Shown here: piece by piece, positions 5,536 through 25,710 of the stretch
Position numbering within the stretch: the first letter of the stretch is position 1
How the letters are laid out: each line of letters starts with the position of its first letter
Origin: Clostridia bacterium
Lineage (GTDB): Bacteria; Bacillota; Clostridia; UMGS1883
NCBI GenBank assembly: GCA_045578925.1
Contig: JAZNLD010000097.1
Coordinates: 1-40,012 of the forward strand
Length of the DNA stretch: 40,012 bases
Reading direction: 5' to 3'
Position numbers and translations under genes: made by a program
The notes under the pieces: generated by a model
Seen by the model: the letters and a program-made list of their open reading frames with translations, nothing else
Database searches by the model: none
Told to the model about the DNA's origin: nothing

Positions 5536-5545
5536 ATTTGTCTCC

Positions 5546-9282: not shown

Positions 9283-10988
9283 TATTTAGTACCCTCCCCT
9301 TCTACAAGATTTATAAATCTGTCAAGCATTACAGCCGCTTCTGCTCTGTTCGCAAAATCATTGGGTCTGAAGTTATTTTTATCATCACCCTTGATTATGC
9401 CATTGTTATTAAGGATATTTACTGCATTTTTTGCATATTCTGCAATTGATTCAGCATCAACGAATGAAACTTCTCCGCTTTCAAGGGTTTTGCCCTTGAA
9501 GTTTAAGAGATTATTCAATATTACAGCCATATCGCAACGACGGATTTTTTCGTTGGGAAGGAATTCTGTTTCGCTAACACCATTTACGATTTTATTTTCA
9601 AGAGCAGCCATAATATATGAATAATACCATTCATCTGCCTTTACGTCTGCAAATTCCTTGCCTTCGCCTGAGAATTCAGGAAGGAATGCTCTTGAAATCA
9701 TAGTAATGAACTCACCACGAGTGATTGTTCCTTCGGGTTTGAATGTTCCATCTGCATAACCATTGATTATTTCTCTCTTGCTGAGGTTACCAACAGCATC
9801 TTCAGCCCATGCGTAATTCTGCATATCGCTGAATGTGATTTTATCATCAACAGGTTTTTCAGGCTCAACGGGAGTTTCAGGTTCTACAGGATTTTCAGGC
9901 TTTGAAGAACCTCCTCCGCCACCCATGCCGCCTGCAGAAACTCCGCCACCACCGGTTTCATTTCCTGTATAGTCGTCATTTGAGCCATTTTCATCTGAAG
10001 AGTCATCTGAACCGCAAAGTTCATCAAGTTTTTCCTGCATAGTCGCAATTGAATTTTTCTTTGCTGCTGAAAGCTGGGCGATTACAGTACTTCTTTCTGT
10101 GTCGCCGAGAGAAGCATAATCTGAAATTTCAAGATTAGCGTCAAGAGCATATTCATCAAAGAAATCTCTTCTTTCTGCACTTGAAAGAGTTTTGGTTTCG
10201 TTTATAACACCTATAAAGATACTTTCCTGCAATTCCTTGTAGAAGCCATCCTTTGTAGAGATACTCTTGCTTGAAATTCTTTCAATAATATCGTTTTGCT
10301 TGGATTCAGGAATAAGTTCCTTCTGACTGAACTTAATTGCCATTTCTTCTTCATCAACAATATTTTTGATTTCGTCGATTTCTTCAAGCTTTCTTTCATT
10401 CAGAAGCTGTACAGTTACTGAGAAATTAAGAGCATCATTTATATCACCGAGAGATTCGGGACTTTCTGCAACAAGCTCTGTTTCAGAAAGGAAATCTTCC
10501 GCAACAGTAGCTATACCTGCAGTGTTCTCTGCGAGCAAGAACTTTTCCGCGTCGCAAAGGTAGACACCGTTCTCAGCAAGGTACTCAACAAGAGTACCTG
10601 CTTCGATAGCGGCCTTTACTTCAGCAATCATAGAAAGTCTTTCTGCTGCAGAAGCATAATATAAAACTTTTTCTTCACTGTCAACATAGAGGGTATATCT
10701 GCCTCTTTCTGCAGTTGAGGGCATTTTGATGGAATACTCATATACCCCGTATTCTACATCCAAAGGTCTGTAGAAAAGCACAGCAGAAGCAAGTATTTCA
10801 TCGTTTTCGTCAGTTGATGAAATGTCATATCCGGGATTAAGAAGCATAACGCTTACATTATTTTTGTCTGTTTCACCGAATATGTTAATCTTGTCAGCCT
10901 CTTTATCAAGAGTCGCCTCCAAAGATGCAAGTGCCACTGTGGGAAGCATCATAAGAGCTGTAATTATTGCTGTTATTCTCTTTTTCAC
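9282..10988 (-). CDS. Secreted cell-wall anchor protein: helical N-terminal region, Gly/Pro-Glu linker and three C-terminal SLH domains
   Basis: 568 aa. GTG start (10988..10986) overlaps the upstream TGA (GTGA), with AGGAGG 9 nt upstream. The signal peptide is KKRITAIITALMMLPTVALASLEA. The linker GGGGVSAGGMGGGGGSSKPENPVEPETPVEPEKPV spans aa 325-383. Three clear SLH repeats span aa 386-558 (nt 9315-9833), starting FSDMQNYAWAEDAVGNL..GYADGTFKPEGTITRGEF, FADVKADEWYYSYI.. and FVDAESIAEYAKNAV..FRPNDFANRAEAAVML. Confidence 0.85.
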   Translation of the reverse strand: MKKRITAIITALMMLPTVALASLEATLDKEADKINIFGETDKNNVSVMLLNPGYDISSTDENDEILASAVLFYRPLDVEYGVYEYSIKMPSTAERGRYTLYVDSEEKVLYYASAAERLSMIAEVKAAIEAGTLVEYLAENGVYLCDAEKFLLAENTAGIATVAEDFLSETELVAESPESLGDINDALNFSVTVQLLNERKLEEIDEIKNIVDEEEMAIKFSQKELIPESKQNDIIERISSKSISTKDGFYKELQESIFIGVINETKTLSSAERRDFFDEYALDANLEISDYASLGDTERSTVIAQLSAAKKNSIATMQEKLDELCGSDDSSDENGSNDDYTGNETGGGGVSAGGMGGGGGSSKPENPVEPETPVEPEKPVDDKITFSDMQNYAWAEDAVGNLSKREIINGYADGTFKPEGTITRGEFITMISRAFLPEFSGEGKEFADVKADEWYYSYIMAALENKIVNGVSETEFLPNEKIRRCDMAVILNNLLNFKGKTLESGEVSFVDAESIAEYAKNAVNILNNNGIIKGDDKNNFRPNDFANRAEAAVMLDRFINLVEGEGTK

Positions 10989-13285
10989 TGTGCCTCACCT
11001 CCTGTAATTTCGTCTGCTGTAAGAGTCTTGTTATAAACTCTGATACTCTTGAATGTTACGCTACCAGCATATTCTTCATTATCTACACCAAGTGAAACAA
11101 GACCTATATTATCGGGAGCTTTCAAAGTCTTGGAAATAGGAGCATCTTCGCCTTCAATGTACCAGTAAATCTTGCTGTTTGTGCCATCAAATACTACTGT
11201 ATGCTTCTTTCCTACAAGTTTTGCAGAGTCAAACTTGGGTCTCTGAAGAGGTGTTGACCAACCCATCATCTGCACCTGAGTTTCAGATGAAAGGATGAAG
11301 TTATTTCCATCATATGAGAAGAGAACAATGCTGCTACCTTCATCAAAGGTTGCATCGGCAAGTTCAAATTCAAGTGTAAAGTTATGTGTATTGAAGATAT
11401 CTGCAACATCTTCTGCAAGTGCTACTGTACCTGCACCACTCTGAATCTCGTAACCATCTGCTGTCCAGTGTCCAACACTTGAATCAAGAGCAATATGGTT
11501 TTCATGACCACTCTTGTCATTCCATACATTTGAAGAAGTATTTGTATCTTCATCAAATGCTACATCAAGAATGATATCCTCGTGCGGAGGAATTACAATT
11601 TTATCAACCGGAGGAAGCGGGTCGCTAAGGACTGTTTCATCGTCTCCTTCAGTTTCAAAATCTGTTTCAACTTCGGGAGCGTACTGTACATAATCTTCGT
11701 CCCACTTGATAACGGCACAGATTGACGCAGCGTTCCAGTCTGATCTGCCTGTATTGAATATCTTTACATTCTCGCCTGCTTCAAATGACTTTGAATAACC
11801 ATTTACCATAACACGGCTTGTAACTTCAGCTTCATCAAATGCCGTTGTCTGAGTTATACCGGGATCAATAGCACGCTTTTCCTTTGCGTTTGCAGCGTTG
11901 TAGTAAAGACAGCTCATAAGATAATCAACATTCCAGTCATTATAGTCCTTACGGATCTGTCTGTAGTTCACGCCCCAGTCAGGAAAATTTGTAGGTTCAG
12001 TTCCGGGAAGCTTTGTCCAGCCGTCTTCTGAATATGCTGAGGTGTTTCTGAATGTTTCACCCGAAATAACATATATTGTACCGGGTGTATCAGCTGTAAA
12101 GTTGAAATAATCCTCTGTAGCGCTATTTGTGAGCCACCAAGCACTCTTACGAATGTCGGCAAACATAAACATGCTACCACCGAGAAGCTTGTCAGTTATA
12201 TTACCAACTGCCCAACCGTTCTGTGTTGTAATGATTGTTCCATTGTCGTTATTTACAGCACTACCACCAATGAATGCAGGTTTTTCGTTATCATCCGCGC
12301 AACCAGAGAAATTAAATTCAGTAAGTCTGGGCTGACGAGCAGTAAATTCTATCTGATAAACAGATTCTTTTTCGTCTCTACCCTCTTTACCATTTGAAAC
12401 AACAATTTCTACACTTGCAACTTCGTTTTTGACAGGAACAAGATTATTTACTGCATAACGCTTATAAACATAAGCTTCTGAAGCTGTACCGTAAAGCTTA
12501 CCGATATCAACACCATCAACAGATGTTACCATAGTATCTGTAAGATAAGTCTTAACAAGTCCTGCTGTTTCAGGAACAAGTCTTATATTCATTGTATTAT
12601 CGGGAAGCTCTACGCTGTAGTTATAAGTGTTGGGATCGAAATCGGGGATTTCGTATTCTTCGTCACCAAGCAAGTATGTAAGATTTGAAAGAGTGTATGT
12701 TTTTTCTTCTGAATCATACATAGTAAGGGTGATTGTTCTCTTTTCTCCTCTGTATGTAGAAAGCTCAATCTTCGCTCTGCCAGGAGAAACATTATCGCTT
12801 ATTTCAACCTTTGTTGTAGCATCCTTAAGGATAACATCGATATCAACTTCGCCTGCTTCACACATAATGGTATATTCGTCAACTTCGTTTGAAAAATCTG
12901 CGAGTTCTTCACCGTTAATCAAAATTCCGCGAATATCCAATTCTTCAGCAGCGTAAACAGCCTTTGAAGAAGCAGTTTCTCCTCCGAATCCATCAATTAC
13001 ATTTGCGATAACTTCGTCTACGCCTGCATCAATTGTTGCAGAGAGAACACCGTTACTGATTATTCTGTCTGTTTTAATCTGCTTAAGCAAACCGTTTGCG
13101 TATGAAGTTAAAACGAGAATTTTATTTTCAGCACCATCAGGCAAAGTTGCTGTTGCTGTTATAGTTTTTGTATCTTCACTTCTGGTGTAGACAATGTGTG
13201 CCTCACCGGCGGCAACCGCCGCCAATGAGCCAAGCATTGAAATCACACAGATAAGTGCGATAATATTCTTCAAAACCTTTTTCAT
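10985..13285 (-). CDS. Secreted non-catalytic(?) protein: Ig-like N-terminus, two cadherin-like beta-sandwich modules, an unassigned central domain and a C-terminal LamG/ConA-like module
   Basis: 766 aa with signal peptide MKKVLKNIIALICVISMLGSLAAVAAG. YTLSNLTYLLGDEEYEIPDFDPNTYNYSVELPDNTMNIRLVP is typical of cadherin-like beta-sandwich modules (aa ~115-320). The C-terminal aa ~570-760 (nt 11006-11578) has a LamG_3-like pattern (WNDKSGHENH..FTLEFEL..KHTVVFDGTNSKIYWYIEG..FKSIRVYNKTLTADEI). Confidence 0.6.
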   Translation of the reverse strand: MKKVLKNIIALICVISMLGSLAAVAAGEAHIVYTRSEDTKTITATATLPDGAENKILVLTSYANGLLKQIKTDRIISNGVLSATIDAGVDEVIANVIDGFGGETASSKAVYAAEELDIRGILINGEELADFSNEVDEYTIMCEAGEVDIDVILKDATTKVEISDNVSPGRAKIELSTYRGEKRTITLTMYDSEEKTYTLSNLTYLLGDEEYEIPDFDPNTYNYSVELPDNTMNIRLVPETAGLVKTYLTDTMVTSVDGVDIGKLYGTASEAYVYKRYAVNNLVPVKNEVASVEIVVSNGKEGRDEKESVYQIEFTARQPRLTEFNFSGCADDNEKPAFIGGSAVNNDNGTIITTQNGWAVGNITDKLLGGSMFMFADIRKSAWWLTNSATEDYFNFTADTPGTIYVISGETFRNTSAYSEDGWTKLPGTEPTNFPDWGVNYRQIRKDYNDWNVDYLMSCLYYNAANAKEKRAIDPGITQTTAFDEAEVTSRVMVNGYSKSFEAGENVKIFNTGRSDWNAASICAVIKWDEDYVQYAPEVETDFETEGDDETVLSDPLPPVDKIVIPPHEDIILDVAFDEDTNTSSNVWNDKSGHENHIALDSSVGHWTADGYEIQSGAGTVALAEDVADIFNTHNFTLEFELADATFDEGSSIVLFSYDGNNFILSSETQVQMMGWSTPLQRPKFDSAKLVGKKHTVVFDGTNSKIYWYIEGEDAPISKTLKAPDNIGLVSLGVDNEEYAGSVTFKSIRVYNKTLTADEITGGEAQ

Positions 13286-13306: not shown

Positions 13307-16300
13307 TTACTTTCCGGAAATTCTGATTTCCTTAACGGCATTCCAGTTACTGATGTTACTACCCTGGCCGATGAATCTTACATACTTAGCCTTGTGTACA
13401 CTACCAAAGTCGAAGTGTTCCCAAGCACCAGATTCAACGCTACCGTCACCTGTTCCGGAATAGATTGTCTGATAGTTCTGTCCGTCATTTGAAATTGCAA
13501 CCTCAAATGCAGCATTACGTCCCTGATTGGGATTGAACATAACTTCAATCGCATCAATATCAGATTCTTTTTCAAGAATAATTGTGATATATCTGCCCTT
13601 ACCGTTAGATGCCCAGATTGTATCGGGATCTTCATCGAATACGTTGTAAGAATAGTTCTCACCATCGACTGAACCGTCGTCGGGCAATACTTCGGAGAAT
13701 CTTACAAAGCCTTCGGGAAGTGACAAGTCTCTTGCGGGAGAAGTGATGTAAACAATTGTAGAGAATCTGTCCCACTCAACTGTTCCGCCGAGAGCTTCGG
13801 TAACCTGACGAAGAGGCACCCACATTTTTCCGTTTTCGTACCACGGAGCAATGGGAAGTGTAATTTCACCATCATTTGTAAGAGCTGTCTTTGATCCGTT
13901 TGTGAGAGTAATACTGGAATTCTTATTCCAGATTTTAACTGTGTTTGAATCATCTGAAATGTTGATTCCATACTGACGAGCCAGCGTATCTGCTGTGACA
14001 ACAGTTGAGCCTTCCTTAATATAAGCAGGATTTTCGTCGTAGATAAATACATTATCTATACGAAGGCTTACCTTATTTGTATCAACAGGGTCGGGAACTT
14101 CTGCTTTTTTAGCCTGAGGTGCTTCTGCGTCCGTCTTGTGAACAGATACATTTCCTGCTTCTGCAGTAAATGCAAGCACGCCGCCTTCTTCAGTTACTCC
14201 GATTGTCTGAAGCTCACCGTTTACAGTAACTTCATATACGCCCGCAGAAACATCGCAGATTGTATACTGGAACTTACCGCTTCCGGGGATTGAAAGTTCA
14301 AAGTCACCTTCTGTGCGCTTTGCGTCTTTTGAGAAGAATACCGCACGGTCACTGATTGTAACGCCGTAGAACAAATCATTTTCCACAAGCTCAGTAGGAA
14401 GATAATTTTCCTTATCGGCATCGCTCACCTGCATTACGTTAAGGAAATGATCTTCCTTATTAGCTGCTGTGGGTGAAACTTCAACACGCCATGTCTGACC
14501 TTCATCAGTTTCAGAAGCGAACTTCTGACCGTCGTAATTCTTGCCGTTTACTGTGTACCAACCGGTCTGGTCGCCACCTACTTTTTCAATATTACTGCTC
14601 TTGGGAAGAAGAGTATCAAGGGTGAGCTTTCCGTTATAGCCGTATGCCTTAACGGGGCTCTTATAGGTTCTCATTGCAACGGTCTGATTTCCGTTAATCT
14701 GAGGTTCTTCAATAGTATGAAGAAGCCATGTTTTCTTGAATGAGGGGTTACTTGAATCAATCTTATCAAAAACGATAAGTGCTGCAGGAACTTCTTCATT
14801 ATCAAGGTTTAAGAACATAAACGAACGCTTGTGGTCAGAAACCTTATCAGTATATGCATTTGTAAAGTCACCCTTCATATATGTGTATGCAGGCTTGATG
14901 GGATCTGTAGGATCGATTTCCAATCCCTGCAAATCGCTGACCTTGTATTCGTCTTCATTACCTGCAATCTGCTTGAAGTTATACTCCTGTGAATTATGAA
15001 CAGCTCTCTGTCCGCCGTCAAGGATAGTTGATCTTGCATTTGCAGCCTTTCCTGCTTCGGAGGGGTCATATACGAGCATAGCGTTGTGCGCTATAGTCTT
15101 TGTTGCGTAGTAGTTAAAGTGTTCTGAACCGAATGCTGACGCTCCGTTACCGCTTGTAGAGTTGTTTGCACCCTGGTATACACCTGATTCTGTTGCGAGT
15201 GCACCCTTGTAGTAAAGCTGGAAACTACCTGCATCCAGGTGCATATGACCGTTAACCTGATGCTCACCGAGTTTCATATTTGCAACTACTGCGGGAGATT
15301 CAGCGCCATCTTCCCAACCGGTACGGGCAATCAATGTGCCGACACCTGAATCAAAATATTTTGAAAGAGGAAGATTTTCATGATTTTTCGCAATCGGAGT
15401 TGAAGGTTCAAGGAAAATTACCGCATCCGCTGTTGATGAGTAGTCGTTGTTACTCATATGCGGGTCAAGTTGCGGTGACATTTTCGCGTATTCACGCTTA
15501 AGATAGGGGTTTTCTGTAAGATAGGCGTCAAGAAGGTATGTCATCTTGAAATCTTCCCAATAGTACCATATCTGATTCTTATCACCTGCTGAAATATCAC
15601 CGTCACGAACCATCTGGCCGTCAGGACGACGGAAGTAAAGCTGCCAGAGAGTATTATCCTCATACTGCTCGAGGTCTATGGGAACTTCACCGCCCATACC
15701 CTTTATAAGAGCGTATGAGTAAGCACTCCACATCTGACGGTACAAACCGTAGTCACTACCCTGCAGAAGACCTGTATCAAATACGCGCCTTGCAGGAACA
15801 TATTCACGATAATATCTGCCGCCGATGAAATCCCAGAGGTCGGGACGCTCGTCGTAAACGGCGATTGCGAGTGTAAGAAGGTCACGAAGAAGCTGAGCTT
15901 CTGCGCCGTGGCCTGTGAAAGCGCCCTGTTTTTCAGGAGGCCAGCCATTTTCCATACTACCTGCAAATACAACAGAGTTCAAAAGAATCTTGTCGCGTTC
16001 TGCAGGAGTGAGAAGGTCATAACACCAGTCATAAACCTTACCTGCTGAATGAATGAAGTGACCTGCCTCACGATACAAAAGACCGCTGTTTGAAAGAGAA
16101 ACATTCTCCATCATAAACATCAAAGCGTCAATAGCATCACGGCCGTGCTGCTTGTTTCCGAAGAGAGCATAGTCAAGCGCGTGAACCTCAATAGCTGAGA
16201 AGTTCCAAGCTGAATATGAAGTCTGTTCTTTTGTTACGCCTTCTTCAAGGAAGTAGTCGTATCTTTCTTTAAGACCTGCATTGTCGGGATGATTAAGATT

Positions 16301-17743
16301 TTCAATAATCCGGGGAATATCTTCCTTGAGGAAGAGAACACGGGGATGTTCGTTCTTCGGAGGATTGATAGGCGGAGCAGGATAATTGCTTGCATCAAGG
16401 ATTTCAACCCTGTTCAAAAGTTCGTCGGGCATATTGCCGTAACGACCTTCCGGAATAAGACCGGGTACGCGTGTTACAAGTACACAGTCAATTGCCGCAT
16501 CCTTTTCACGGCCACGAAGACGAACCTTGTATTCCGTGCCGGGCTCCATAATCTGTGAGTGAAGTCTGTACCAACGGTAATCTTCACCACGTGTCATAGC
16601 CTGCTGCTTGTATGCATTGTTACCGAAAGCATAGAAGAATGAGTCGCTTCGGTTTGTGTTTGCAAAAGTACGAATCCAGACGTTGTAGCTTGCCTTCTCC
16701 TCTACCGTAAATTTTACTTCGATATGAGGACTTGCGGTAGAAGCAGGATTCGTGTTGTTGTTGTAGTTTGATTTCATTGCCTTTACGCCACCGGCGTTAC
16801 GGTCAATTGTAACATCAAAGTGAGAAGTGTAGTTTGCTTCTTCTACGGGGATAATAAGACCGGGGCCTGTAACGAGGAAAGGTTCAGGTCTTTCGTGAAC
16901 GAATGCAGCGTTCTTTTTAACATATTCTGCTGCATTGTCAATTTTCTTTCTGTAAGGCGCGATAACATCGGCAGAAATACCTGCGTCGGCAAGTACATCA
17001 TCAATTGTTACTTCATAGCCTTCAGCATCTTTATATATAGTATGTCCATAATTTTCTTCTTCAAATTTTGCTGTAAAAGTGTCGCCTTTTTCCCAGCCGC
17101 TTTCCATTTTGGAAATATCAAAGCCGTAGAACTTTCCATCTCTTGTGGCATCTGTACAAAAGGCATTTAAAACATCATTTACTATAAGATATACAACACC
17201 GTTTTCACAATCGGCAATATAGTCGAATTTATTGTAAACTTCTTCGTCGGGATTGCTGTGCTTGTAAGTATAATTAAGAGCGTAACCGCGAAGGTCATTG
17301 TCGCCGTCAAAAATAGACATTGAAGCACCGAGATTGAATCTCAACGATTCGGTACTTCCCGTATAATGAGTGATTCTTATACCTGAAGCGTATAAATCGT
17401 CCTGCCCAACGGGGGTAGAATTCAGTCCCTTAACATAAAATCTGACATGGGCAAATTTTGCATCCACACCTGATTTATTGACATAATTCATCATTTTGTC
17501 ACGGGCAGTGCCGTGAGCTTCAAACTGAAGATTAAGTTCAGCGACTCTTCCCTGAGAATCTTTCTGTTGTTCAAAGGTATATGAGCCATCAGTTGCACCT
17601 AACGTAAAAAAGTCAAAGTTTCCCTTGGAAATATTTGCTTCAGAAAATTCTGCCGCAAATACAGCCACAGGAAATAATGACACAACCATTGCAAGTGTCA
17701 TAACTGCGCTTATTATCTTTTTGATAGTTTTTTTCATTTTCAT
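13307..17743 (-). CDS. Secreted multi-domain heparinase II/III-like (DUF4962-type) polysaccharide lyase with accessory modules
   Basis: 1478 aa with signal peptide to AVFA|AE.
- aa 31-265 (nt 16949-17653): unassigned module shared with the 652-aa protein.
- aa 290-427: CBM-like beta-sandwich (VEEANYTS..SYNVWIRTFANTNRSDSFFYAF).
- aa ~455-1110 (nt 14414-16381): lyase core (NEHPRVLFLKEDIPRI, GHGAEAQLLRDLLTLAIAVYDERPD, NGHMHLDAGSFQLYYKG, TIAHNAMLVYD).
- aa ~1225-1335: copper-amine-oxidase-N-like module (YENGKMWVPLRQVTEALGGTVEWD).
- aa ~1345-1478 (nt 13310-13711): F5/8 type C (discoidin/CBM32-like) module. Confidence 0.75.
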   Translation of the reverse strand: MKMKKTIKKIISAVMTLAMVVSLFPVAVFAAEFSEANISKGNFDFFTLGATDGSYTFEQQKDSQGRVAELNLQFEAHGTARDKMMNYVNKSGVDAKFAHVRFYVKGLNSTPVGQDDLYASGIRITHYTGSTESLRFNLGASMSIFDGDNDLRGYALNYTYKHSNPDEEVYNKFDYIADCENGVVYLIVNDVLNAFCTDATRDGKFYGFDISKMESGWEKGDTFTAKFEEENYGHTIYKDAEGYEVTIDDVLADAGISADVIAPYRKKIDNAAEYVKKNAAFVHERPEPFLVTGPGLIIPVEEANYTSHFDVTIDRNAGGVKAMKSNYNNNTNPASTASPHIEVKFTVEEKASYNVWIRTFANTNRSDSFFYAFGNNAYKQQAMTRGEDYRWYRLHSQIMEPGTEYKVRLRGREKDAAIDCVLVTRVPGLIPEGRYGNMPDELLNRVEILDASNYPAPPINPPKNEHPRVLFLKEDIPRIIENLNHPDNAGLKERYDYFLEEGVTKEQTSYSAWNFSAIEVHALDYALFGNKQHGRDAIDALMFMMENVSLSNSGLLYREAGHFIHSAGKVYDWCYDLLTPAERDKILLNSVVFAGSMENGWPPEKQGAFTGHGAEAQLLRDLLTLAIAVYDERPDLWDFIGGRYYREYVPARRVFDTGLLQGSDYGLYRQMWSAYSYALIKGMGGEVPIDLEQYEDNTLWQLYFRRPDGQMVRDGDISAGDKNQIWYYWEDFKMTYLLDAYLTENPYLKREYAKMSPQLDPHMSNNDYSSTADAVIFLEPSTPIAKNHENLPLSKYFDSGVGTLIARTGWEDGAESPAVVANMKLGEHQVNGHMHLDAGSFQLYYKGALATESGVYQGANNSTSGNGASAFGSEHFNYYATKTIAHNAMLVYDPSEAGKAANARSTILDGGQRAVHNSQEYNFKQIAGNEDEYKVSDLQGLEIDPTDPIKPAYTYMKGDFTNAYTDKVSDHKRSFMFLNLDNEEVPAALIVFDKIDSSNPSFKKTWLLHTIEEPQINGNQTVAMRTYKSPVKAYGYNGKLTLDTLLPKSSNIEKVGGDQTGWYTVNGKNYDGQKFASETDEGQTWRVEVSPTAANKEDHFLNVMQVSDADKENYLPTELVENDLFYGVTISDRAVFFSKDAKRTEGDFELSIPGSGKFQYTICDVSAGVYEVTVNGELQTIGVTEEGGVLAFTAEAGNVSVHKTDAEAPQAKKAEVPDPVDTNKVSLRIDNVFIYDENPAYIKEGSTVVTADTLARQYGINISDDSNTVKIWNKNSSITLTNGSKTALTNDGEITLPIAPWYENGKMWVPLRQVTEALGGTVEWDRFSTIVYITSPARDLSLPEGFVRFSEVLPDDGSVDGENYSYNVFDEDPDTIWASNGKGRYITIILEKESDIDAIEVMFNPNQGRNAAFEVAISNDGQNYQTIYSGTGDGSVESGAWEHFDFGSVHKAKYVRFIGQGSNISNWNAVKEIRISGK

Positions 17744-17780
17744 TTTTCTCCTCCCTATAGGGGGCTGTCGTGTAGAGGTT

Positions 17781-17844
17781 TAGCAGAATTTTTTCTGCTA
17801 TGGAAATCGGTATTGCAGGAGTGACCGAAAACGGGCACTCCTAC
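17781..17844 (-). other. Two intercistronic RNA stem-loops without U-tracts, between the 994-aa and 1478-aa genes
   Basis: On the minus strand, GTAGGAGTGCCCG-TTTT-CGGTCACTCCTGC (17844..17815) forms a 13-position stem with 1 mismatch and 1 G.U pair. TAGCAGAA-AAAA-TTCTGCTA (17800..17781) forms a perfect 8-bp stem. Neither is followed by a T-run. Confidence 0.5.
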
Positions 17845-17857
17845 AATTGATTACAGA

Positions 17858-20842
17858 TTAAAATCCTGTTGTAAATGCTTCGTATTCATTTGCAGCATCA
17901 GTTTCAGAAATTTCAACATTGAGGAACTTGATCTGCTGATATACTGCGCTACCTTTACCTGAGATAAGTTTGATATTTTCTGCTACCTCATCTTCGTTGT
18001 AAGGTCTTACAGAGCAAAGTGTGCCATTAAGATACCATTTCACTTCACCCTTATTCTTGTTGACAGTAATTATATGATGATTACCGTCAACTTCTGTGGG
18101 ATGGAGGAAAGGTCTTCTGAGAGTTGATTTCCAACCGGGAAGCTTGAGATAAATCTTTTCTGCACCGATAATCTTATGAACTGCAAAAGTGCTTCTTACA
18201 TCACCGAGGATTGAAAGACTCTTCTTTGCTTCCGGAACATCAATATCGGAAATCGAGAATTCTATTGTGTACTGGCTGCCGTTTACAGTATCCTTTGCAA
18301 TTGAAGGAAGATATGTTGTGCTATCTTCTGCAGTTACATAAAGACCGTTGCTTTCCCAGCTTGAGCCTGCGGGAAGTGCGAGAGCGTTACCGTTTTCGCT
18401 AAGGTCGTACCAGCTTGTTGCAGTTGTGCTCTGGCTGTCGCCGTTAGAAAGACGATAATCGTACCAGAGGACAGTTGCGAAATCAATGTCACCATCGTCA
18501 AAGGGTGCTACTGTATATTCGCCTGAAGCATCGCCATCAACTGAGAATGCGATAGTACCGTCAGTTGAAGTTACATCATAAACACCGAGGGGCCTTGAGT
18601 CCTTCTTAACTGTCCACTTGCCACCTGCGATACCGAAGATGAAGAAGTTCTGATCTTCGCCGCTTTCTACTGTAAAGTCAGCTGACTGTGTAAGTGAGCC
18701 TGTACCAGTGTTTGCGAACATTACAACCTGATTGTAGGGAGTCTGTGTACCTACGAGGCGTGATGATTCGCTTCCGATAAGTGTTGAAGCTTCGGTAGTT
18801 CTCCATGTATCAGAAGCAGTAAGTACGTTAAGGAAGTATGTTGTTGTACCTTCTGTCTGTGCCTGAACTTCAATTCTTCCCCATTCGGGTTCGTTCTTGC
18901 TTTCGTTACGCTGAGTGGGGGTATAAGTCTTACCGTTTGTCTGTGTACCCTGAACAGCAGTAATCTTCGCATTCTGAGGAAGAAGTGTGTTTACAGCAAG
19001 TCTTCCGCCGTATGTAACGCTACCGTTTGAATATTCTGTGGTAAGCGAGTTTTCAATTCTTGTTGTATTGCCTTCTATAGTAGGTGCTGTAGGAAGATGA
19101 AGAAGGAATTTTTTGGTCTGGCTTGACTTCTTGCTTGTAACCTTATCGAATACAACCATTATCGCGGGTGCGCCAGGGCTACCTGTGGGAAGAAATGCCA
19201 TTGAACGGGCAACTTCGCCTGACTTGTTGCTGTTATAAGCAGATGTAAGGTCACCCTTGATGTAAGAGTATGAGTTATCTGCTGCAATTGACTGATTCAC
19301 AACTGCAGATCTCTTGTAGGGAGCGGATGTCTTCCAAGCAGAAAGGTCTTGTGCACCGTATCCGATAAGCTGACCGCCATCGTTAGCGATACTTGTGATT
19401 CCGTTGTCAGATTTGAATGATTCGCTGCTGTCGTAGATAGTAATCGCGTTATGCGCAACCGTTCTTCTGTAATAGTTAAGGTCAAAATCACTGTTGTAGT
19501 CATCCTGCGCACCGAAGTCACCTGTCAGCTGTCCGCGGAAATAAAGCTGGAACGTACCTGCATCAAGGTGATCGTGGTTACCGGAGAATCTTTCACCGAT
19601 TTTCATTTCAGCGGCTGCAACACCGTGGTCCTTTGCACCTGTCTTGATGTAGCCCCAATCGGTCTTAGCGTAAATCTTACCTTCGGGAGAACCGAAATAC
19701 TTACTCTTGGGAAGAGAGCTTCTGTCCTTTTCAAAAGGAACTGAAGGATCGTTCATAATGAGCCAGTAAACAGCGTTAAATGAACGCTCGTCTGTGAAGC
19801 TTGAGCTTGTGAAGACTTCTTCACCGCGCATATATCTGTATTCACCCTTGAAATATTTATCATCGAAAAGGTCAGCAGCAAGCTTTGCAGTCTGCTGGTT
19901 GAAGTTGTTGTAGTACCAACGACCGTTTTCCTTGTTGTCACCTTCGGTAAAGAATCTGCCGTCGGGACGACGAGCATAAATCATACCATAAAGTACATTC
20001 TTCATAAGGTCGGTATTAAAGAGATTCTGTGTGCCGCCGCTCATTTTCTGAACGAGCAATTCAGCATACAAATCCCACGCGAAACGATACCAGCCGTATT
20101 CAGTACCCTGATGGATGTATTCACTGCGATAGTAGTCGTTACGGACAGGAACATATTCCTGCTGGATTCTACCCATTGCAGCATTGTAGATGTCGGGGCG
20201 TTCGTCGTATACAGCGATACCAAATGCAAGCATGTCACGAAGAAGCTGTGCTTCTGAACCGTGACCCTGAATAGCATCCTGTTTCGTAGGCGGATAGCCG
20301 ATTTCAAAGTAATCTTCCATCAGGTCTTCACAGCCGCTGATGATAGAGTTTCTTTCGCTTGAGTCAAGAAGGTCGTAACACCAGTCATAAACCTCGGCAG
20401 CTTTGAACACTACTCCACCTGCAAAGCGGTATTCAAGGCTATTTGAATACTGAACCTTGCCAAGATATTCGATAAGGCGTGCTACAGCAGTATTACCGCT
20501 TGCTTCGTTACCGTTTATGAGGTAATCGAAAGCAAATGCTTCAATCAGGTTTTCATCGTTGAAGTTGTAATTATCGCCTGAAGTCTTGTTACCGATTGAA
20601 ACTGAAGTATAGCTTCCGGAAACAAGTGATTCAAAGTGACTTGTCGCCGCACTGTTCTGAGAAGATGACATGTTTTCCTTGATAGTAGCAATGTCACTGC
20701 TTCTGAGCATTACGCGGGGATGTGTGTTTGCCGGGGGTGTAATGGTGGGGGTCTGATACTTGTTTGAAACCACCGCCGTTACGGAGGATACCATTGTTAT
20801 AATCATAACCATGCTTATAACAACTGCTAAAAGTTTTTTCAT
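17858..20842 (-). CDS. Secreted heparinase II/III-like (DUF4962-type) polysaccharide lyase with a C-terminal LamG-like module; paralogue of the 1478-aa protein
   Basis: 994 aa with signal peptide MKKLLAVVISMVMIITMVSSVTAVVS. The core spans aa ~35-690 (nt 18773-20740): NTHPRVMLRSSDIATI, VYDWCYDLL, GHGSEAQLLRDMLAFGIAVYDERPD, GNHDHLDAGTFQLYFRG, TVAHNAITIYD. All of these align by eye with the 1478-aa protein. The LamG-like module spans aa ~790-985 (nt 17888-18475). Confidence 0.75.
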   Translation of the reverse strand: MKKLLAVVISMVMIITMVSSVTAVVSNKYQTPTITPPANTHPRVMLRSSDIATIKENMSSSQNSAATSHFESLVSGSYTSVSIGNKTSGDNYNFNDENLIEAFAFDYLINGNEASGNTAVARLIEYLGKVQYSNSLEYRFAGGVVFKAAEVYDWCYDLLDSSERNSIISGCEDLMEDYFEIGYPPTKQDAIQGHGSEAQLLRDMLAFGIAVYDERPDIYNAAMGRIQQEYVPVRNDYYRSEYIHQGTEYGWYRFAWDLYAELLVQKMSGGTQNLFNTDLMKNVLYGMIYARRPDGRFFTEGDNKENGRWYYNNFNQQTAKLAADLFDDKYFKGEYRYMRGEEVFTSSSFTDERSFNAVYWLIMNDPSVPFEKDRSSLPKSKYFGSPEGKIYAKTDWGYIKTGAKDHGVAAAEMKIGERFSGNHDHLDAGTFQLYFRGQLTGDFGAQDDYNSDFDLNYYRRTVAHNAITIYDSSESFKSDNGITSIANDGGQLIGYGAQDLSAWKTSAPYKRSAVVNQSIAADNSYSYIKGDLTSAYNSNKSGEVARSMAFLPTGSPGAPAIMVVFDKVTSKKSSQTKKFLLHLPTAPTIEGNTTRIENSLTTEYSNGSVTYGGRLAVNTLLPQNAKITAVQGTQTNGKTYTPTQRNESKNEPEWGRIEVQAQTEGTTTYFLNVLTASDTWRTTEASTLIGSESSRLVGTQTPYNQVVMFANTGTGSLTQSADFTVESGEDQNFFIFGIAGGKWTVKKDSRPLGVYDVTSTDGTIAFSVDGDASGEYTVAPFDDGDIDFATVLWYDYRLSNGDSQSTTATSWYDLSENGNALALPAGSSWESNGLYVTAEDSTTYLPSIAKDTVNGSQYTIEFSISDIDVPEAKKSLSILGDVRSTFAVHKIIGAEKIYLKLPGWKSTLRRPFLHPTEVDGNHHIITVNKNKGEVKWYLNGTLCSVRPYNEDEVAENIKLISGKGSAVYQQIKFLNVEISETDAANEYEAFTTGF

Positions 20843-21129: not shown

Positions 21130-23088
21130 TTAGTTGAGTTCAATAATCTTCTGTTCGAGGAGGGGCTTCATTGTACCATTCTCCCAAAGGTATACAACTG
21201 CAAAATCAACGGGTTCAGCGTAAGCTGAAGCGTCGAAAATCTTGGGTTCTTCTTCGTTACCATAAACAAGACCGCTTTCGAAGTCCTTGATATCAAGGTC
21301 AAGAAGAGCACCTGATTCGCCGTAAACTGCGATATAAAGCTTAGCTGCGCCTTCGTAACGAGTTGCTTCTGCCGCTCCGAAAATTACGAAAAGCGCGCCG
21401 TCTGCTTCAAAGGCGCACTCAGCATCCATCCATTCAAATGTTGTTGCAGGTTCAACACCTGTGATAACTGATTCGATTTCAGCGAAGTCTGCATTCTGGT
21501 TGTAAGTAGAAAGTGTCCAGTTGTCAATTGTAACTGTACCTTCTGCATTCTTAGTGCTAAGGATGATATCGTTTACTCTATTTGCGTAATATGAATCAAC
21601 TTTACCTTCACTTGCAAGCTTGCCGTTAACATATACGTACTGCTTCAAGTAACCCTCGTCAGTACCTGTTTCTACAGGCTCAAGAATCCAGTCGATATGG
21701 TTTGTACCTGTTGTTGTAGCAGTGGGCTTATAACCGCTGCCGTTACAGGTTATATTACTGCCGCCCTTTACACCGACAACAAGGTTTCCGTTGTTGTTCC
21801 ACATCTGGAGTGCCTGCTCCGTACCTGAATATCTTGTTTCATACTTGAGCCACATTCCATCGTTTGAGATTGTCTGGTCAAATGAAAGCTTGATGTATTT
21901 TGCACGGGGATGATAGCTTTCATAGCTGATACCTGTCTTACCATTTATGGGGTAGAAGCCTGAAAGCATTTTTGCAGCTGTAGCATAGTTTTCAGTATCG
22001 GTATTTGTAGCTTCGATTGTAGCTGCTGTACCTGAATATGTAATATTTTCGTTAATTCTCTGTCTTTCGCTGTAGTCCCTTTCATATGTGTATACATCTG
22101 TAAATATACCATAATTGTATCCGGGCATATACCATTCGAGGTCGCCTGCTTTTGACTTGTAAATCATATTTTCTTCGTCAAGCTCAGCACCAAGACCTGC
22201 ATCCTGCATAACGTCTTCCATAGTTACCATGTAGTCATCAGTGTTGTAGTACTCTCTGTGACCTACTCTGTCAGTGTCAAACTTTGCAGCAACATAGTCA
22301 CTGTTACCTCTTGTTTTCTGTCCGCTGGCAATTCTGAGAACTATACCATGGAAATGCTTGTCGGTAAGACCAGAGTCATAGTATGAACCCATAAATTTTC
22401 CGTTTACGAAAATATATGATGTAGCACCGCCCTGCTTATTATATTCCACAATAAGGTCAACCTTATCATAATCTTCTGCTTTAGGAGCAGTTTGGTGTGA
22501 ATTTGCTGTTACATTGTCTGCAGGGCCATTACCTGCTCCACCCTGATGAGCTATGCCCATCCAGTCCTTTGAAGTGTAAGCAGCACTACTTGAGTAACTT
22601 GCGGGGTAAACTGAGGTTTCAAAATTATCTCCTTCTTTCCATGTGTGGAAAAGATAAGCATCTCTTGAAGAACCTGTTCCATCCTTGTCCAAACGCAGCT
22701 GAAGCTTATTCGTAGCATTTCTATACTGGTCAGAGAATGATGCAAGATAGAATCTCATATGTGCATAAGTTGCATTTACATCTTGATATTCGCCATAATC
22801 TGACGCAGATACACCGAACTTGTATGCTACGGGGTTTCTGTTGCTGGTTAATGTTTTTCCTGAAGATGCAACCATTTTTACCGCTACAAGATTTTCGTCT
22901 CCATCGCTGTCTATTTCATACTCTTTAAAGTACTCAGCAAAATCTGAAGTACTTGTGTAGAAGCCTCTTTCATACTGGTGCCAGTTTGCTTCTGAAAAAG
23001 AACCTTCTTCTGCTGCCATTGAAGGAATAGCAACAAATGCCATAATCATCATTACTGACAATGTCAGGCTTAAAACTTTTTTAAACAT
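21130..23088 (-). CDS. Secreted protein of unknown function with two jelly-roll-like modules; the N-terminal one is shared with the 1478-aa lyase
   Basis: 652 aa with signal peptide MFKKVLSLTLSVMMIMAFVAIPSMAAEE and GGAGG 7 nt upstream of the ATG. No catalytic or binding family is recognisable by eye. See findings for the module homology. Confidence 0.6.
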   Translation of the reverse strand: MFKKVLSLTLSVMMIMAFVAIPSMAAEEGSFSEANWHQYERGFYTSTSDFAEYFKEYEIDSDGDENLVAVKMVASSGKTLTSNRNPVAYKFGVSASDYGEYQDVNATYAHMRFYLASFSDQYRNATNKLQLRLDKDGTGSSRDAYLFHTWKEGDNFETSVYPASYSSSAAYTSKDWMGIAHQGGAGNGPADNVTANSHQTAPKAEDYDKVDLIVEYNKQGGATSYIFVNGKFMGSYYDSGLTDKHFHGIVLRIASGQKTRGNSDYVAAKFDTDRVGHREYYNTDDYMVTMEDVMQDAGLGAELDEENMIYKSKAGDLEWYMPGYNYGIFTDVYTYERDYSERQRINENITYSGTAATIEATNTDTENYATAAKMLSGFYPINGKTGISYESYHPRAKYIKLSFDQTISNDGMWLKYETRYSGTEQALQMWNNNGNLVVGVKGGSNITCNGSGYKPTATTTGTNHIDWILEPVETGTDEGYLKQYVYVNGKLASEGKVDSYYANRVNDIILSTKNAEGTVTIDNWTLSTYNQNADFAEIESVITGVEPATTFEWMDAECAFEADGALFVIFGAAEATRYEGAAKLYIAVYGESGALLDLDIKDFESGLVYGNEEEPKIFDASAYAEPVDFAVVYLWENGTMKPLLEQKIIELN

Positions 23089-24728: not shown

Positions 24729-24821
24729 TGTACCATTTCCTTTCTTTTTTATATATTTAATTAAATTTAATTGCATTTTTTTGCAGGTCGTTTTCACCTG
24801 TGGGTTAGGAAGTGTAAAGTT

Positions 24822-25694
24822 TTATTCCTTTACCGCGCCGAGCATTACGCCCTTTACAAAGAATTTCTGTACATAGGGGTAAATGATAAGCATCGGGAGA
24901 ACTGCAACAACCATTGTTGCGTAAACAACAGTTTCACGAGAGATGATGTTGAAGTCCATTGCACCGCCGGAAGAGTTCATAGCATCCATCTTAACAACAA
25001 GCTTCTGAAGAAGAACCTGAAGAGGAAGCTTTGATTCATCCTGAAGAAGTACCATTTCCCAGAAATAGCTGTTCCAATGACCAACGAAGTAATAAAGTGA
25101 AATTGTCATAAGTGCCGCTGTTGAAAGCGGAAGATATATTTTCCACAAAATTGTAAAGTCACCTGCACCGTCAAGTCGTGCTGACTCATCAAGCGCCTCG
25201 GGAATTGATTCAAAGAATGAACGCATAAGAATTACATAATATGCGGCTACCGCACCTACGAGGAAGATACCCCAACGGGAGTTTATCATACCAAGGTCAC
25301 GGAAGTTTATGAATGTTGCAATCATGCCTGCACCGAACCACATTGAAACCATTATGTAAAGTGATAAGACCTTTCTACCGTAGAGCCACTTCTTTGAAAG
25401 TGCGTACGCACAGGTTACTGTGAGGAACATATTTATGATTGTACCAATTACTGAATAAAAAATTGTGTTCAGGTAAGAAACCCATATACCGTTTGTGCTG
25501 ATAACACTTTTATAGGATTCAAGGGTAAAATCGCTAAACCACAAAATTACCCTGCCGCTTGCTACGGCATCGTTAGAACTGAAAGATGCAACAACGATAT
25601 ACCAGATAGGGAATATCGAGCACACTATAACTATGAACATAAATGCGCATATAATCGCATCTAATACGCGATCTGCTTTTGTTTTAATTTTCAC
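24822..25694 (-). CDS. Carbohydrate ABC transporter permease (LplC-like)
   Basis: The ORF-track start (25766) would overlap the upstream gene by 56 nt. GTG 25694..25692 has AGGAG 8 nt upstream and lies 16 nt after the upstream stop. The product has multiple hydrophobic spans and an EAA-loop-like ESARLDGAGDFTILWKIYLPLS. Confidence 0.85.
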   Translation of the reverse strand: MKIKTKADRVLDAIICAFMFIVIVCSIFPIWYIVVASFSSNDAVASGRVILWFSDFTLESYKSVISTNGIWVSYLNTIFYSVIGTIINMFLTVTCAYALSKKWLYGRKVLSLYIMVSMWFGAGMIATFINFRDLGMINSRWGIFLVGAVAAYYVILMRSFFESIPEALDESARLDGAGDFTILWKIYLPLSTAALMTISLYYFVGHWNSYFWEMVLLQDESKLPLQVLLQKLVVKMDAMNSSGGAMDFNIISRETVVYATMVVAVLPMLIIYPYVQKFFVKGVMLGAVKE

Positions 25695-25710
25695 GACATT
25701 CTCTCCTCTC

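What the first reader, a model, noticed from the sequence alone, without database searches (positions are those of the whole stretch)
13307..20842. Tandem paralogous heparinase II/III-like lyases with different accessory modules
The 1478-aa and 994-aa products share a long collinear core:
- HPRV(L/M), VYDWCYDLL, GHG(A/S)EAQLLRD(L/M)L..(I/G)A(V/I)VYDERPD, H(M/D)HLDAG(S/T)FQLY(Y/F), (I/V)AHNA(M/I).(V/I)YD.

These segments fit the DUF4962 plus Hepar_II_III architecture. That architecture spans several PL families acting on heparin/heparosan, alginate and other uronate polymers.

The larger paralogue adds four extras: an unassigned N-terminal module, a CBM-like sandwich, a copper-amine-oxidase-N-like module and a discoidin (F5/8C, CBM32-like) module. 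The smaller one adds only a LamG-like tail. This pattern suggests endo/exo or substrate-subsite specialisation. Discoidin modules commonly bind Gal/GalNAc-type host sugars. The PL family and the substrate cannot be decided by eye and may be new.
Basis: partly seen in the sequence, partly recalled or inferred. Interest (0 to 1): 0.65.

Follow-up and report, generated by a model that had tools for sequence, protein, structure and literature searches.

The report
Two tandem heparinase-II-type (PL21) lyases
Two neighbouring genes in an uncultured gut Clostridia bacterium encode secreted sugar-chain-cutting enzymes of the already known heparinase II family (PL21), sitting in a conserved uptake-and-digestion gene cluster; the family is not new, but which acidic polysaccharide they cut is still unknown.

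Summary
ORFs 13307-17743(-) (1478 aa) and 17858-20842(-) (994 aa) are tandem paralogues, 36% identical over about 693 aa, and every quoted motif is present.

The "family may be new" reading does not hold. Both proteins align over the full length of Pedobacter heparinus heparinase II (PDB 2FUQ/3E80, the PL21 prototype) at E 8e-112 and 1e-86. No solved PL12/15/17/33/35/39 lyase reaches E 0.01. No DUF4962 domain is detected.

The catalytic residues His202/Glu205/Tyr257/Arg261/His406 are kept in both, and in 101 of 101 relatives compared. The Zn ligands are also kept.

They are not heparinase II equivalogs:
- They score 518 and 423 bits against NCBIfam HepB, below its 600-bit cut-off.
- They sit in two separate Clostridia-dominated clades, away from HepII.

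The surrounding locus is conserved in four other contigs: AraC regulator, ABC importer, both lyases, SLH-type surface proteins and a 2-hydroxyacid dehydrogenase, with a cytoplasmic GH78 rhamnosidase where the contig reaches that far. Neither a sulfatase nor GH88 was found in the window.

Best reading: surface-associated PL21 beta-eliminases that open up a rhamnose-containing, probably non-sulfated acidic glycan. This is a new member of a known family with an undetermined substrate, of moderate interest.

The parts
13307..17743 (-). Large PL21 paralogue, 1478 aa, secreted. Order of parts: signal peptide, N-terminal jelly roll, beta-sandwich, PL21 core, Cu_amine_oxidN1, F5/8C (CBM32-like).
17654..17743 (-). 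Signal peptide of the large paralogue (aa 1-30, ...VAVFA/AE).
   Evidence: Read from the sequence; no predictor was run.
16964..17653 (-). N-terminal module (aa ~31-260): predicted beta jelly roll with no Pfam family. Homologous to the N-terminal part of the 652-aa ORF 21130-23088.
   Evidence: (E 2e-8)
16409..16891 (-). Beta-sandwich module (aa ~285-445) with a weak Golvesin_C match. It recurs directly upstream of the PL21 core in 72 proteins of the fetched loci (nearly all of them PL21-like).
14141..16363 (-). PL21 catalytic region of the large paralogue (aa 461-1201). Catalytic equivalents are H612, E615, Y665, R669, H833; Zn-site equivalents are H835, E852, H886. HepII_C lies at aa 1120-1198.
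13745..14053 (-). Cu_amine_oxidN1 ('stalk') domain, aa 1231-1333.
   Evidence: 63.2 bits, cut-off 24.2
13334..13663 (-). F5/8 type C (CBM32-like) domain, aa 1361-1470. Closest solved relatives are CBM32 of alginate lyase AlyQ and YeCBM32.
17858..20842 (-). Small PL21 paralogue, 994 aa, secreted. Order of parts: signal peptide, PL21 core, jelly-roll tail.
18515..20737 (-). PL21 catalytic region of the small paralogue (aa 36-776). Equivalents are H194, E197, Y249, R253, H423, H425, D442, H464. Q446 replaces HepII Tyr429.
17861..18445 (-). C-terminal tail of the small paralogue (aa ~800-994): predicted lectin-type beta jelly roll. Homologous to the C-terminal tail of the 766-aa ORF 10985-13285.
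   Evidence: (E 5e-11)
21130..23088 (-). Secreted 652-aa protein with no family hit. Its N-terminal ~300 aa share the module found at the N-terminus of the large lyase. The position between the SBP and the lyases is conserved in L082.
23196..26652 (-). ABC importer: lipoprotein solute-binding protein (23196-24797) and two permeases (24822-25766, 25711-26652).
26862..29066 (+). Divergently transcribed 734-aa AraC-family regulator. Conserved next to the transporter in L002 and L082.
6547..13285 (-). Three secreted, apparently non-catalytic surface proteins. The 766-aa one has a cadherin-like segment and a jelly-roll tail. The 568-aa one has three SLH repeats. The 911-aa one has a weak SLH-like segment. 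All are conserved downstream of the lyases.
2738..6532 (.). Cytoplasmic enzymes (no signal peptide): 2-hydroxyacid dehydrogenase (5546-6532, -), GH78 alpha-L-rhamnosidase (3532-5535, -) and a xylose-isomerase-like TIM-barrel protein (2738-3535, +).

Best explanation
Both genes encode secreted polysaccharide lyases of family PL21 (the heparinase II family). They belong to uncharacterised, Clostridia-dominated branches of that family.

Proposed mechanism, inferred from heparinase II:
- The Glu/Arg/His environment (E615, R669, H833 in the large protein; E197, R253, H423 in the small) neutralises the uronate carboxylate.
- Tyr (Y665/Y249) or His (H612/H194) abstracts the C5 proton.
- The bond at O4 of the uronic acid is broken by beta-elimination, leaving a 4,5-unsaturated uronate end.

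Proposed pathway, inferred from the locus:
- The enzymes work outside the cell, alongside SLH-type surface proteins.
- Their binding modules differ: a jelly roll, a beta-sandwich, a Cu-amine-oxidase-N 'stalk' and a CBM32 on the large one, and a lectin-type jelly roll on the small one.
- The oligosaccharides enter through the adjacent ABC importer, under control of the divergent AraC regulator.
- In the cytoplasm they are trimmed by the GH78 rhamnosidase and further enzymes.

The most likely substrate is a rhamnose-containing, non-sulfated acidic glycan (plant gum, pectic-type polymer or microbial exopolysaccharide) rather than heparin or heparan sulfate.

Shown: family membership, conservation of catalytic residues, paralogy, conserved synteny, secretion signals. 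Inferred: lyase activity, extracellular action, substrate class, division of labour between the two paralogues.
For: - Full-length homology to heparinase II (2FUQ/3E80): E 8e-112 (aa 461-1193) and 1e-86 (aa 36-766). Identity is 34% and 32% over about 690 aligned positions.
- Pfam Hepar_II_III_C plus HepII_C in both proteins.
- HepII residues H202, E205, Y257, R261 and H406 are identical in both paralogues and in 101/101 aligned relatives. The Zn ligands H408/D425/H451 are kept, with D to E in the large one. The roles of H202/Y257/H406 come from PMC10656541, PMC7904915 and PMC11848413.
- No solved lyase of another PL family reaches E 0.01.
- They are not HepB equivalogs: 518 and 423 bits against a 600-bit cut-off. 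A neighbour-joining tree puts HepII with Bacteroidota and some Paenibacillaceae. The two window proteins fall in two other clades, each with its own orthologue in L002/L003.
- Synteny of AraC-ABC-(unknown)-PL21small-PL21big-surface proteins-2HAdh-GH78 is seen, to the extent each contig reaches, in L001 (73% identity), L002/L003 (48%) and L082.
- Signal peptides are present on the lyases and surface proteins and absent on GH78, the dehydrogenase and the TIM-barrel protein; the SBP has a lipobox.
- No sulfatase or GH88/GH105 hit was found in any ORF scanned in the window. GH88 was seen only in a Bacteroidota locus.
- The catalytic cores are acidic (pI 4.8 and 5.0, net charge -41 and -23) against pI 8.7 for HepII.
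- The CBM32's closest solved relatives come from alginate lyases and YeCBM32.
Against: - Every characterised PL21 enzyme acts on heparin/HS (PMC11848413), so a GAG-type substrate is the default expectation.
- A block 2-12 kb away in the window encodes NagA, UxuA, a D-mannonate oxidoreductase and a PIG-L deacetylase. That would suit a GlcNAc/GlcA polymer such as heparosan. This block is not syntenic in L002 or L082.
- The acidic pI argument is weak, because most proteins in the window are acidic.
- GH78 co-occurrence is documented only in the close relatives L001-L003. L082's fetched flank stops before that position.
- No enzyme that would remove the unsaturated uronate (GH88/GH105) was identified.
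- The small paralogue lacks the nearly invariant Tyr429 equivalent. That could mean reduced or altered activity.
- No activity data exist, and dbCAN/CAZy HMMs could not be run.
Confidence: 0.75

Rival explanations
1. They are genuine heparin/heparan-sulfate, heparosan or acharan-type lyases used by a gut Clostridia bacterium to forage host or bacterial GlcN(Ac)-uronate polymers. That is the same job as heparinase II.
For: - PL21 is known only from heparin/HS lyases (PMC11848413).
- The catalytic residues are fully conserved, including His202, which is the base for IdoA (PMC12088678).
- The closest relatives come from gut metagenome-assembled genomes.
- NagA, UxuA, a UxuB-like SDR and a PIG-L deacetylase lie nearby in the window.
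Against: - The HepB equivalog score is below its cut-off.
- The proteins fall in clades separate from HepII.
- There is no sulfatase and no GH88 in 40 kb.
- The conserved operon partner is a GH78 rhamnosidase.
- The NagA/UxuA block is not conserved next to the locus in L002/L082.
- The cores are acidic.
- Relatives also occur in anaerobic-digester and termite-gut MAGs and in Paenibacillus and Cohnella isolates.
Confidence: 0.17
2. One or both proteins are not lyases. They could be uronate C5-epimerases that use the same His/Tyr machinery, or catalytically weakened carbohydrate-binding surface proteins. The small paralogue, which lacks the Tyr429 equivalent, is the more likely candidate.
For: - Dermatan-sulfate epimerase shares fold and catalytic logic with this lyase superfamily (abstract of PMC8006597).
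- The small paralogue has Q446 at a position that is Tyr in 99/101 relatives.
Against: - All residues needed for elimination are retained in both proteins.
- The Tyr429 substitution is shared by the nearest relatives P0012-P0014, so it is a conserved clade trait rather than decay.
- The catabolic context (importer, cytoplasmic glycosidase) argues for depolymerisation.
Confidence: 0.05
3. The pair founds a new polysaccharide lyase family distinct from PL12/15/17/21/33/39.
For: Identity to the only solved PL21 member is only 32-34%.
Against: - The alignment to heparinase II runs end to end at E 8e-112 and 1e-86.
- The HepII_C domain is present.
- The NCBIfam HepB model matches over 731 of its 774 positions.
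- There is a continuum of 788 cluster representatives at E<=1e-30.
Confidence: 0.02

Closest known systems
Heparinase II (HepB) of Pedobacter heparinus, PL21 prototype (PDB 2FUQ, 2FUT, 3E7J, 3E80)
   Same: - The three-part catalytic region is aligned end to end.
- His202/Glu205/Tyr257/Arg261/His406 and the Zn-site residues are conserved.
- Pfam Hepar_II_III_C plus HepII_C are present.
   Different: - Identity is only 32-34%.
- The proteins score below the NCBIfam equivalog cut-off.
- They fall in different clades.
- The cores are acidic rather than basic.
- Extra modules are present: a jelly roll, a beta-sandwich, Cu_amine_oxidN1 and CBM32 on one, and a jelly-roll tail on the other.
- The loop after the Zn-binding Asp is about 10 aa longer in the large protein and 4 aa shorter in the small one, and Tyr429 is replaced by Gln in the small one.
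- The setting is a Gram-positive ABC-transporter locus with GH78, with no sulfatases or GH88 found.
PL15_2 exo-heparinases (e.g. BIexoHep, PDB 6LJA), DUF4962 + Hepar_II_III
   Same: Same fold superfamily and the same His/Tyr/His catalytic logic (PMC7904915).
   Different: No DUF4962 domain is detected, and no PL15 chain is found at E<=0.01.
Gram-positive polysaccharide utilisation loci such as the Bacillus sp. GL1 gellan system (extracellular lyase, then cytoplasmic unsaturated glucuronyl hydrolase, glucosidase and rhamnosidase RhaB)
   Same: The logic matches: a secreted lyase, followed by import and a cytoplasmic GH78. RhaB of Bacillus sp. GL1 (2OKX) is the best solved match of the window's GH78. 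The description of the pathway is from my own knowledge.
   Different: The lyase family differs. No GH88 was identified in the window. Gellan as substrate is only one of several possibilities.
CBM32 modules of alginate lyase AlyQ (7D29, 5XNR) and YeCBM32 (2JD9)
   Same: These are the best solved matches of the C-terminal F5/8C domain, at E 1e-12 to 5e-11.
   Different: Here the module is attached to a PL21 core, and its ligand is untested.

Membership tests
PL21 (heparinase II family) | Significant sequence similarity over the whole catalytic region to a characterised member | tested here: met
   2FUQ/3E80 at E 8e-112 (aa 461-1193 vs chain 19-737) and 1e-86 (aa 36-766 vs chain 20-738). NCBIfam HepB model covered at positions 42-772 and 7-770 of 774.
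PL21 (heparinase II family) | Catalytic His202, Tyr257 and His406, plus Glu205 and Arg261 | tested here: met
   H612/E615/Y665/R669/H833 in the large protein and H194/E197/Y249/R253/H423 in the small one. All are invariant in 101/101 aligned sequences.
PL21 (heparinase II family) | Structural Zn site (His408, Asp425, His451; residue list from my own knowledge of Shaya et al. 2006) | tested here: met
   H835/E852/H886 (Asp to Glu) and H425/D442/H464.
PL21 (heparinase II family) | C-terminal HepII_C beta domain | tested here: met
   The large protein scores 53.3 bits (cut-off 26.1). The small protein scores 20.2 bits, which is below cut-off, but its alignment to 3E80 runs through to chain residue 738.
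PL21 (heparinase II family) | Assignment by the CAZy/dbCAN PL21 model | not testable with these tools
Heparinase II equivalog (heparin/heparan-sulfate lyase HepB, NF045571) | Score at or above the curated equivalog cut-off of 600 bits | tested here: not met
   518.2 and 422.7 bits.
Heparinase II equivalog (heparin/heparan-sulfate lyase HepB, NF045571) | Beta-eliminative cleavage of heparin and heparan sulfate | not testable with these tools
   Requires an enzyme assay.
PL15_2 / 'DUF4962 + Hepar_II_III' architecture | DUF4962 domain N-terminal of the heparinase II/III domain | tested here: not met
   No DUF4962 hit at E<=0.01 in either protein. The N-terminal 420 aa were rescanned at E<=5 and gave only weak Golvesin_C.
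PL12, PL15, PL17, PL33, PL35, PL39 | Closer sequence similarity to a solved member of that family than to PL21 | tested here: not met
   Only heparinase II chains matched the catalytic region at E<=0.01.
CBM32 / F5_F8_type_C | Domain model above the gathering score, and similarity to solved CBM32 modules | tested here: met
   PF00754 at 46.6 bits (cut-off 28.2) and PF22633 at 36.2 bits (cut-off 27.8). AlyQ, YeCBM32 and alginate-lyase CBM32 at E 1e-12 to 5e-11.
Laminin G / concanavalin-A-like lectin fold (tail of the small paralogue) | Sequence-model hit or a confident structural match | tested here: inconclusive
   No Pfam hit at E<=5. The model has pLDDT 72 from a 3-sequence alignment. The best Foldseek matches are the jelly-roll N-subdomain of neurotoxin Hc, at TMq 0.45-0.51.

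The most novel reading that the evidence does not exclude
The two enzymes represent branches of PL21 with a substrate specificity not yet known for the family. They would cleave a rhamnose-containing, non-sulfated acidic glycan, for example a plant gum or pectic-type polymer or a bacterial capsule/exopolysaccharide. The many PL21 paralogues per genome in uncultured gut Clostridia (at least 5-6 contigs in single MAGs) would then reflect a radiation onto many such glycans. The conserved 2-hydroxyacid dehydrogenase and TIM-barrel pair might stand in for the usual downstream steps that process unsaturated uronate.
Probability: 0.45. Interest if true: 0.6.

Novelty: new member of a known kind. Interest (0 to 1): 0.38.

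Why it matters
PL21 has so far been reported to act only on heparin and heparan sulfate (PMC11848413).

This window shows that uncultured gut Clostridia, along with Paenibacillaceae, carry a large, multi-modular and uncharacterised part of that family. There are 788 cluster representatives at E<=1e-30, and several paralogues per genome. Some of them sit in conserved Gram-positive utilisation loci that lack the usual glycosaminoglycan partners and instead include a rhamnosidase.

If the substrate proves to be something other than heparin/HS, three things would follow:
- The known chemistry of PL21 would widen.
- A large set of metagenomic 'heparinase II/III-like' annotations would gain functional meaning.
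- A dietary or microbial glycan niche for poorly known gut Clostridia would be identified.

If the substrate is heparosan or HS after all, this is an ordinary family member.

Tried and rejected
- Exact-sequence look-up of the 994-aa protein in public assemblies found nothing on record.
- A word-indexed homology search with the tail alone returned only one fragment, so the tail model rests on 3 sequences.
- PDB sequence searches gave nothing usable for the 911-, 766- and 652-aa neighbours or for the GtaA-like protein. The 1388-aa beta-helix protein gave only weak hits: a parallel beta-helix protein at 8.5e-5 and BT_1002 at 4.6e-4.
- Literature searches for PL21 with Paenibacillus or GH78, and for the DUF4964/DUF5127/DUF4965 architecture, found no functional study relevant to this locus.
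- The key mechanistic paper (Shaya 2010, PMC2888417) is not held. The substrate-contact residues I checked (148, 405, 429, 436, 437) were therefore chosen from memory, and their roles are uncertain.
- The promoter/terminator scan was at chance level and did not define operon boundaries.
- A Pfam census of 124 neighbour-gene representatives from Firmicute PL21 loci showed a heterogeneous context: AraC 7, GFO_IDH_MocA 5. Sulfatase and GH88 were not among the 25 most frequent families, but the table is truncated, so absence cannot be claimed.
- I considered treating the NagA/UxuA/PIG-L block as part of the system and rejected it, because it is not syntenic in L002 or L082.
- I considered an endo versus exo assignment and did not make one. 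No full-length models could be built, because the structure quota went to the accessory modules.
Full report
**1. Observation**

The window carries two ORFs on the minus strand, 114 nt apart: 13307-17743 (1478 aa) and 17858-20842 (994 aa). BLASTP between them gives E 2e-106 and 36% identity over 693 positions, collinear from just before HPRV(L/M) to the end of the catalytic region.

**2. Family**

- Pfam finds Hepar_II_III_C and HepII_C in both proteins, and no DUF4962.
- Against all PDB sequences, the catalytic regions match only heparinase II of Pedobacter heparinus (2FUQ, 2FUT, 3E7J, 3E80), which is the PL21 prototype.
- The E-values are 8e-112 (aa 461-1193 vs chain 19-737) and 1e-86 (aa 36-766 vs chain 20-738).
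- No solved PL12, PL15, PL17, PL33, PL35 or PL39 lyase reaches E 0.01.
- The NCBIfam equivalog model for HepB is matched over almost its entire length, but at 518 and 423 bits, below its 600-bit cut-off.

The proteins are therefore PL21-family members but not heparinase II equivalogs. DUF4962 is the mark of PL15_2 exo-heparinases (PMC7904915), not of PL21.

**3. Catalytic residues**

I rebuilt the HepII sequence from the printed alignment and aligned it with the two window cores and 98 PL21-like ORFs taken from related loci.

| HepII residue | Large paralogue | Small paralogue | State in 101 sequences |
|---|---|---|---|
| H202 | H612 | H194 | invariant |
| E205 | E615 | E197 | invariant |
| Y257 | Y665 | Y249 | invariant |
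| R261 | R669 | R253 | invariant |
| H406 | H833 | H423 | invariant |
| H408 (Zn) | H835 | H425 | His in 93 |
| D425 (Zn) | E852 | D442 | Asp in 70, Glu in 18 |
| H451 (Zn) | H886 | H464 | His in 96 |

The roles of His202, Tyr257 and His406 are taken from PMC10656541, PMC7904915, PMC11848413 and PMC12088678. In those papers Tyr257 is the base/acid for GlcA and His202 is the base for IdoA.

The two paralogues differ near the active site:
- The small one has Q446 where HepII has Tyr429, a position that is Tyr in 99/101 sequences. Its closest relatives P0012-P0014 share this change, so it is a clade trait.
- The large one has G/F/G at HepII positions 405/436/437, where the small one keeps N/Y/N.
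- The loop after the Zn-binding acid is about 10 aa longer in the large paralogue's clade and 4 aa shorter in the small one's clade.

I chose these positions from memory, and the mechanistic paper could not be read.

**4. Accessory modules**

Large protein:
- A signal peptide.
- An N-terminal module (aa ~31-260) with no Pfam family.
- A beta-sandwich (aa ~285-445) with only a sub-threshold Golvesin_C hit.
- Cu_amine_oxidN1 at aa 1231-1333.
- F5_F8_type_C at aa 1361-1470.

An AlphaFold model of aa 29-450 (pLDDT 77) shows two beta jelly-roll/sandwich domains joined by helices. Foldseek returns only generic jelly-roll matches at TM 0.2-0.3.

Small protein: the tail model (pLDDT 72, pTM 0.73, 3-sequence alignment) is a jelly roll. 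It most resembles the lectin-like N-subdomain of clostridial neurotoxin binding domains, at TMq about 0.5. That is compatible with a concanavalin/LamG-type fold but not proven.

The discoidin domain's closest solved relatives are CBM32 modules of alginate lyases (AlyQ) and YeCBM32. From my own knowledge, these bind uronate polymers rather than Gal/GalNAc.

**5. Modules shared with neighbours**

- The N-terminal module of the large lyase is homologous to the first ~300 aa of the secreted 652-aa ORF 21130-23088 (E 2e-8).
- The tail of the small lyase is homologous to the tail of the secreted 766-aa ORF 10985-13285 (E 5e-11). It is also homologous to 433-aa ORFs downstream of PL21 genes in L006-L009.
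- The beta-sandwich recurs immediately upstream of the PL21 core in 72 proteins of the fetched loci, nearly all of them PL21-like, and sometimes twice in one protein.

**6. Context**

Locus on the minus strand, in order of transcription:

| Gene | Features |
|---|---|
| Two ABC permeases | |
| Solute-binding protein | lipoprotein |
| 652-aa protein | secreted, no family |
| PL21 small | secreted |
| PL21 large | secreted |
| 766-aa protein | secreted |
| 568-aa protein | three SLH repeats |
| 911-aa protein | weak SLH-like segment |
| 2-hydroxyacid dehydrogenase | no signal peptide |
| GH78 alpha-L-rhamnosidase | no signal peptide |
| Xylose-isomerase-like TIM-barrel protein | opposite (+) strand |
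| GtaA-like six-hairpin protein | no signal peptide |

A 734-aa AraC regulator is transcribed divergently from the start of this locus.

The order is conserved in metagenome contigs:
- L001: 73% identity.
- L002/L003: 48% identity, with both PL21 genes kept in tandem.
- L082: 78% identity for the small paralogue.

No sulfatase or GH88/GH105 was detected in any ORF scanned in the window.

A second block at 29166-39563 encodes DUF4432, a PIG-L deacetylase, a 1388-aa beta-helix protein, a D-mannonate oxidoreductase, UxuA, an AraC regulator and NagA. It is not adjacent to the locus in L002 or L082, so I do not count it as part of the system.

**7. Distribution**

- The best is a Clostridia MAG (SGB_940) at 74% identity.
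- Single MAGs carry PL21 genes on 5-6 contigs among the top 80 hits alone. Examples are Candidatus Aphodoplasma excrementigallinarum, Oscillospiraceae SIG449 and SIG450, and a digester Clostridiaceae MAG.
- Tandem pairs or triplets are common.
- A search of 1.84 billion cluster representatives gave 1951 hits at E<=1e-3 and 788 at E<=1e-30. Most are multi-modular proteins of 1000-2900 aa.
- In a neighbour-joining tree, HepII groups with Bacteroidota and some Paenibacillus, Cohnella and Janthinobacterium sequences. The two window proteins lie in two other clades, each with its own orthologue in L002/L003, so the duplication is old.
- The full architecture of the large protein was found in only four other clusters, at 48-73% identity.

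**8. Interpretation**

The best-supported reading is a Gram-positive polysaccharide utilisation locus. Two secreted PL21 beta-eliminases, with different binding modules and different active-site loops, depolymerise an acidic glycan at the cell surface. The fragments are imported by the ABC system and trimmed in the cytoplasm by the GH78 and other enzymes.

A rhamnose-containing, non-sulfated substrate is favoured over heparin/HS for four reasons:
- The conserved operon partner is a rhamnosidase.
- No sulfatase or GH88 was found in the window.
- The proteins score below the HepB equivalog cut-off and fall in separate clades.
- The catalytic cores are acidic. This last point is weak, because most proteins in the window are acidic.

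This remains an inference. All characterised PL21 enzymes act on heparin/HS (PMC11848413), and a heparosan-type substrate is not excluded.

**9. Verdict**

The 'possibly new PL family' and 'DUF4962' parts of the interpretation are wrong. The 'substrate cannot be decided' part stands. This is a new, multi-modular member pair of a known family in an uncharacterised branch. Interest is moderate, mainly as an entry point to the large uncharacterised Firmicute part of PL21.

Noticed in passing
window 21130-23088(-) and 16964-17653(-): The secreted 652-aa ORF with no known family shares its N-terminal ~300 aa with the N-terminal module of the large lyase (E 2e-8). This is an undescribed jelly-roll module used both fused to an enzyme and in a separate secreted protein.
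   Followed up: partly
window 10985-13285(-) and 17861-18445(-); L006:13628-14929, L008:5412-6716, L009:8182-9483: The jelly-roll tail of the small lyase also ends the 766-aa secreted protein (E 5e-11). It also ends 433-aa ORFs that follow PL21 genes in other Clostridia loci.
   Followed up: partly
window 16409-16891(-); 72 proteins (nearly all PL21-like) in L001-L081: A beta-sandwich with weak Golvesin_C similarity sits directly N-terminal of the PL21 core in most Firmicute relatives, sometimes duplicated. It is absent from the small paralogue. It could shape the cleft or bind substrate.
   Followed up: partly
L010, L014, L019, L021, L029, L046 (one MAG); L023, L032, L037, L038, L044 (one MAG); L053, L056, L059 (one MAG): Single uncultured Clostridia genomes carry five, six or more PL21 paralogues, often in tandem pairs or triplets. 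This is a family expansion for which the PL21 literature searches made here turned up no description.
   Followed up: partly
window 5546-6532(-) and 2738-3535(+); L001, L002, L006, L008, L009, L011, L051, L054, L069: A 2-hydroxyacid dehydrogenase (10 loci) and a xylose-isomerase-like TIM-barrel protein (7 loci) recur next to PL21 genes across different clades, while GH88/KduI/KduD were not seen. They may form an alternative route for processing the lyase products.
   Followed up: no
window 6547-10988(-): The 911-aa and 568-aa SLH-type surface proteins have relatives next to PL21 genes in 23 loci. They have no detectable catalytic domain and may form a cell-surface scaffold for the lyases.
   Followed up: no
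window 31089-35255(-): This is a 1388-aa secreted right-handed beta-helix protein ending in the same Cu_amine_oxidN1 domain as the large lyase. Its N-terminus weakly resembles a parallel beta-helix protein (9RX2) and GH141 BT_1002 (E 8.5e-5 and 4.6e-4). It may be a second surface-bound glycan-degrading enzyme.
   Followed up: partly
window 29166-39563(-): This block encodes DUF4432, a PIG-L deacetylase, a D-mannonate oxidoreductase, UxuA, AraC and NagA, which points to GlcA and GlcNAc catabolism. It lies next to the locus here but not in L002 or L082.
   Followed up: partly
window 727-2640(-): This is a cytoplasmic DUF4964/DUF5127/GtaA six-hairpin protein (E 9e-124 to the Pfam model) at the end of the locus. 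It has no solved relative by sequence, and no functional study was found. It is a candidate glycosidase of unknown specificity.
   Followed up: partly
window 19507-19509(-) (codon of Q446 of the small paralogue): The Tyr429 equivalent is Tyr in 99 of 101 relatives. It is Gln here and Gln/Glu in the closest relatives P0012-P0014. This is a clade-specific change near the active site.
   Followed up: partly
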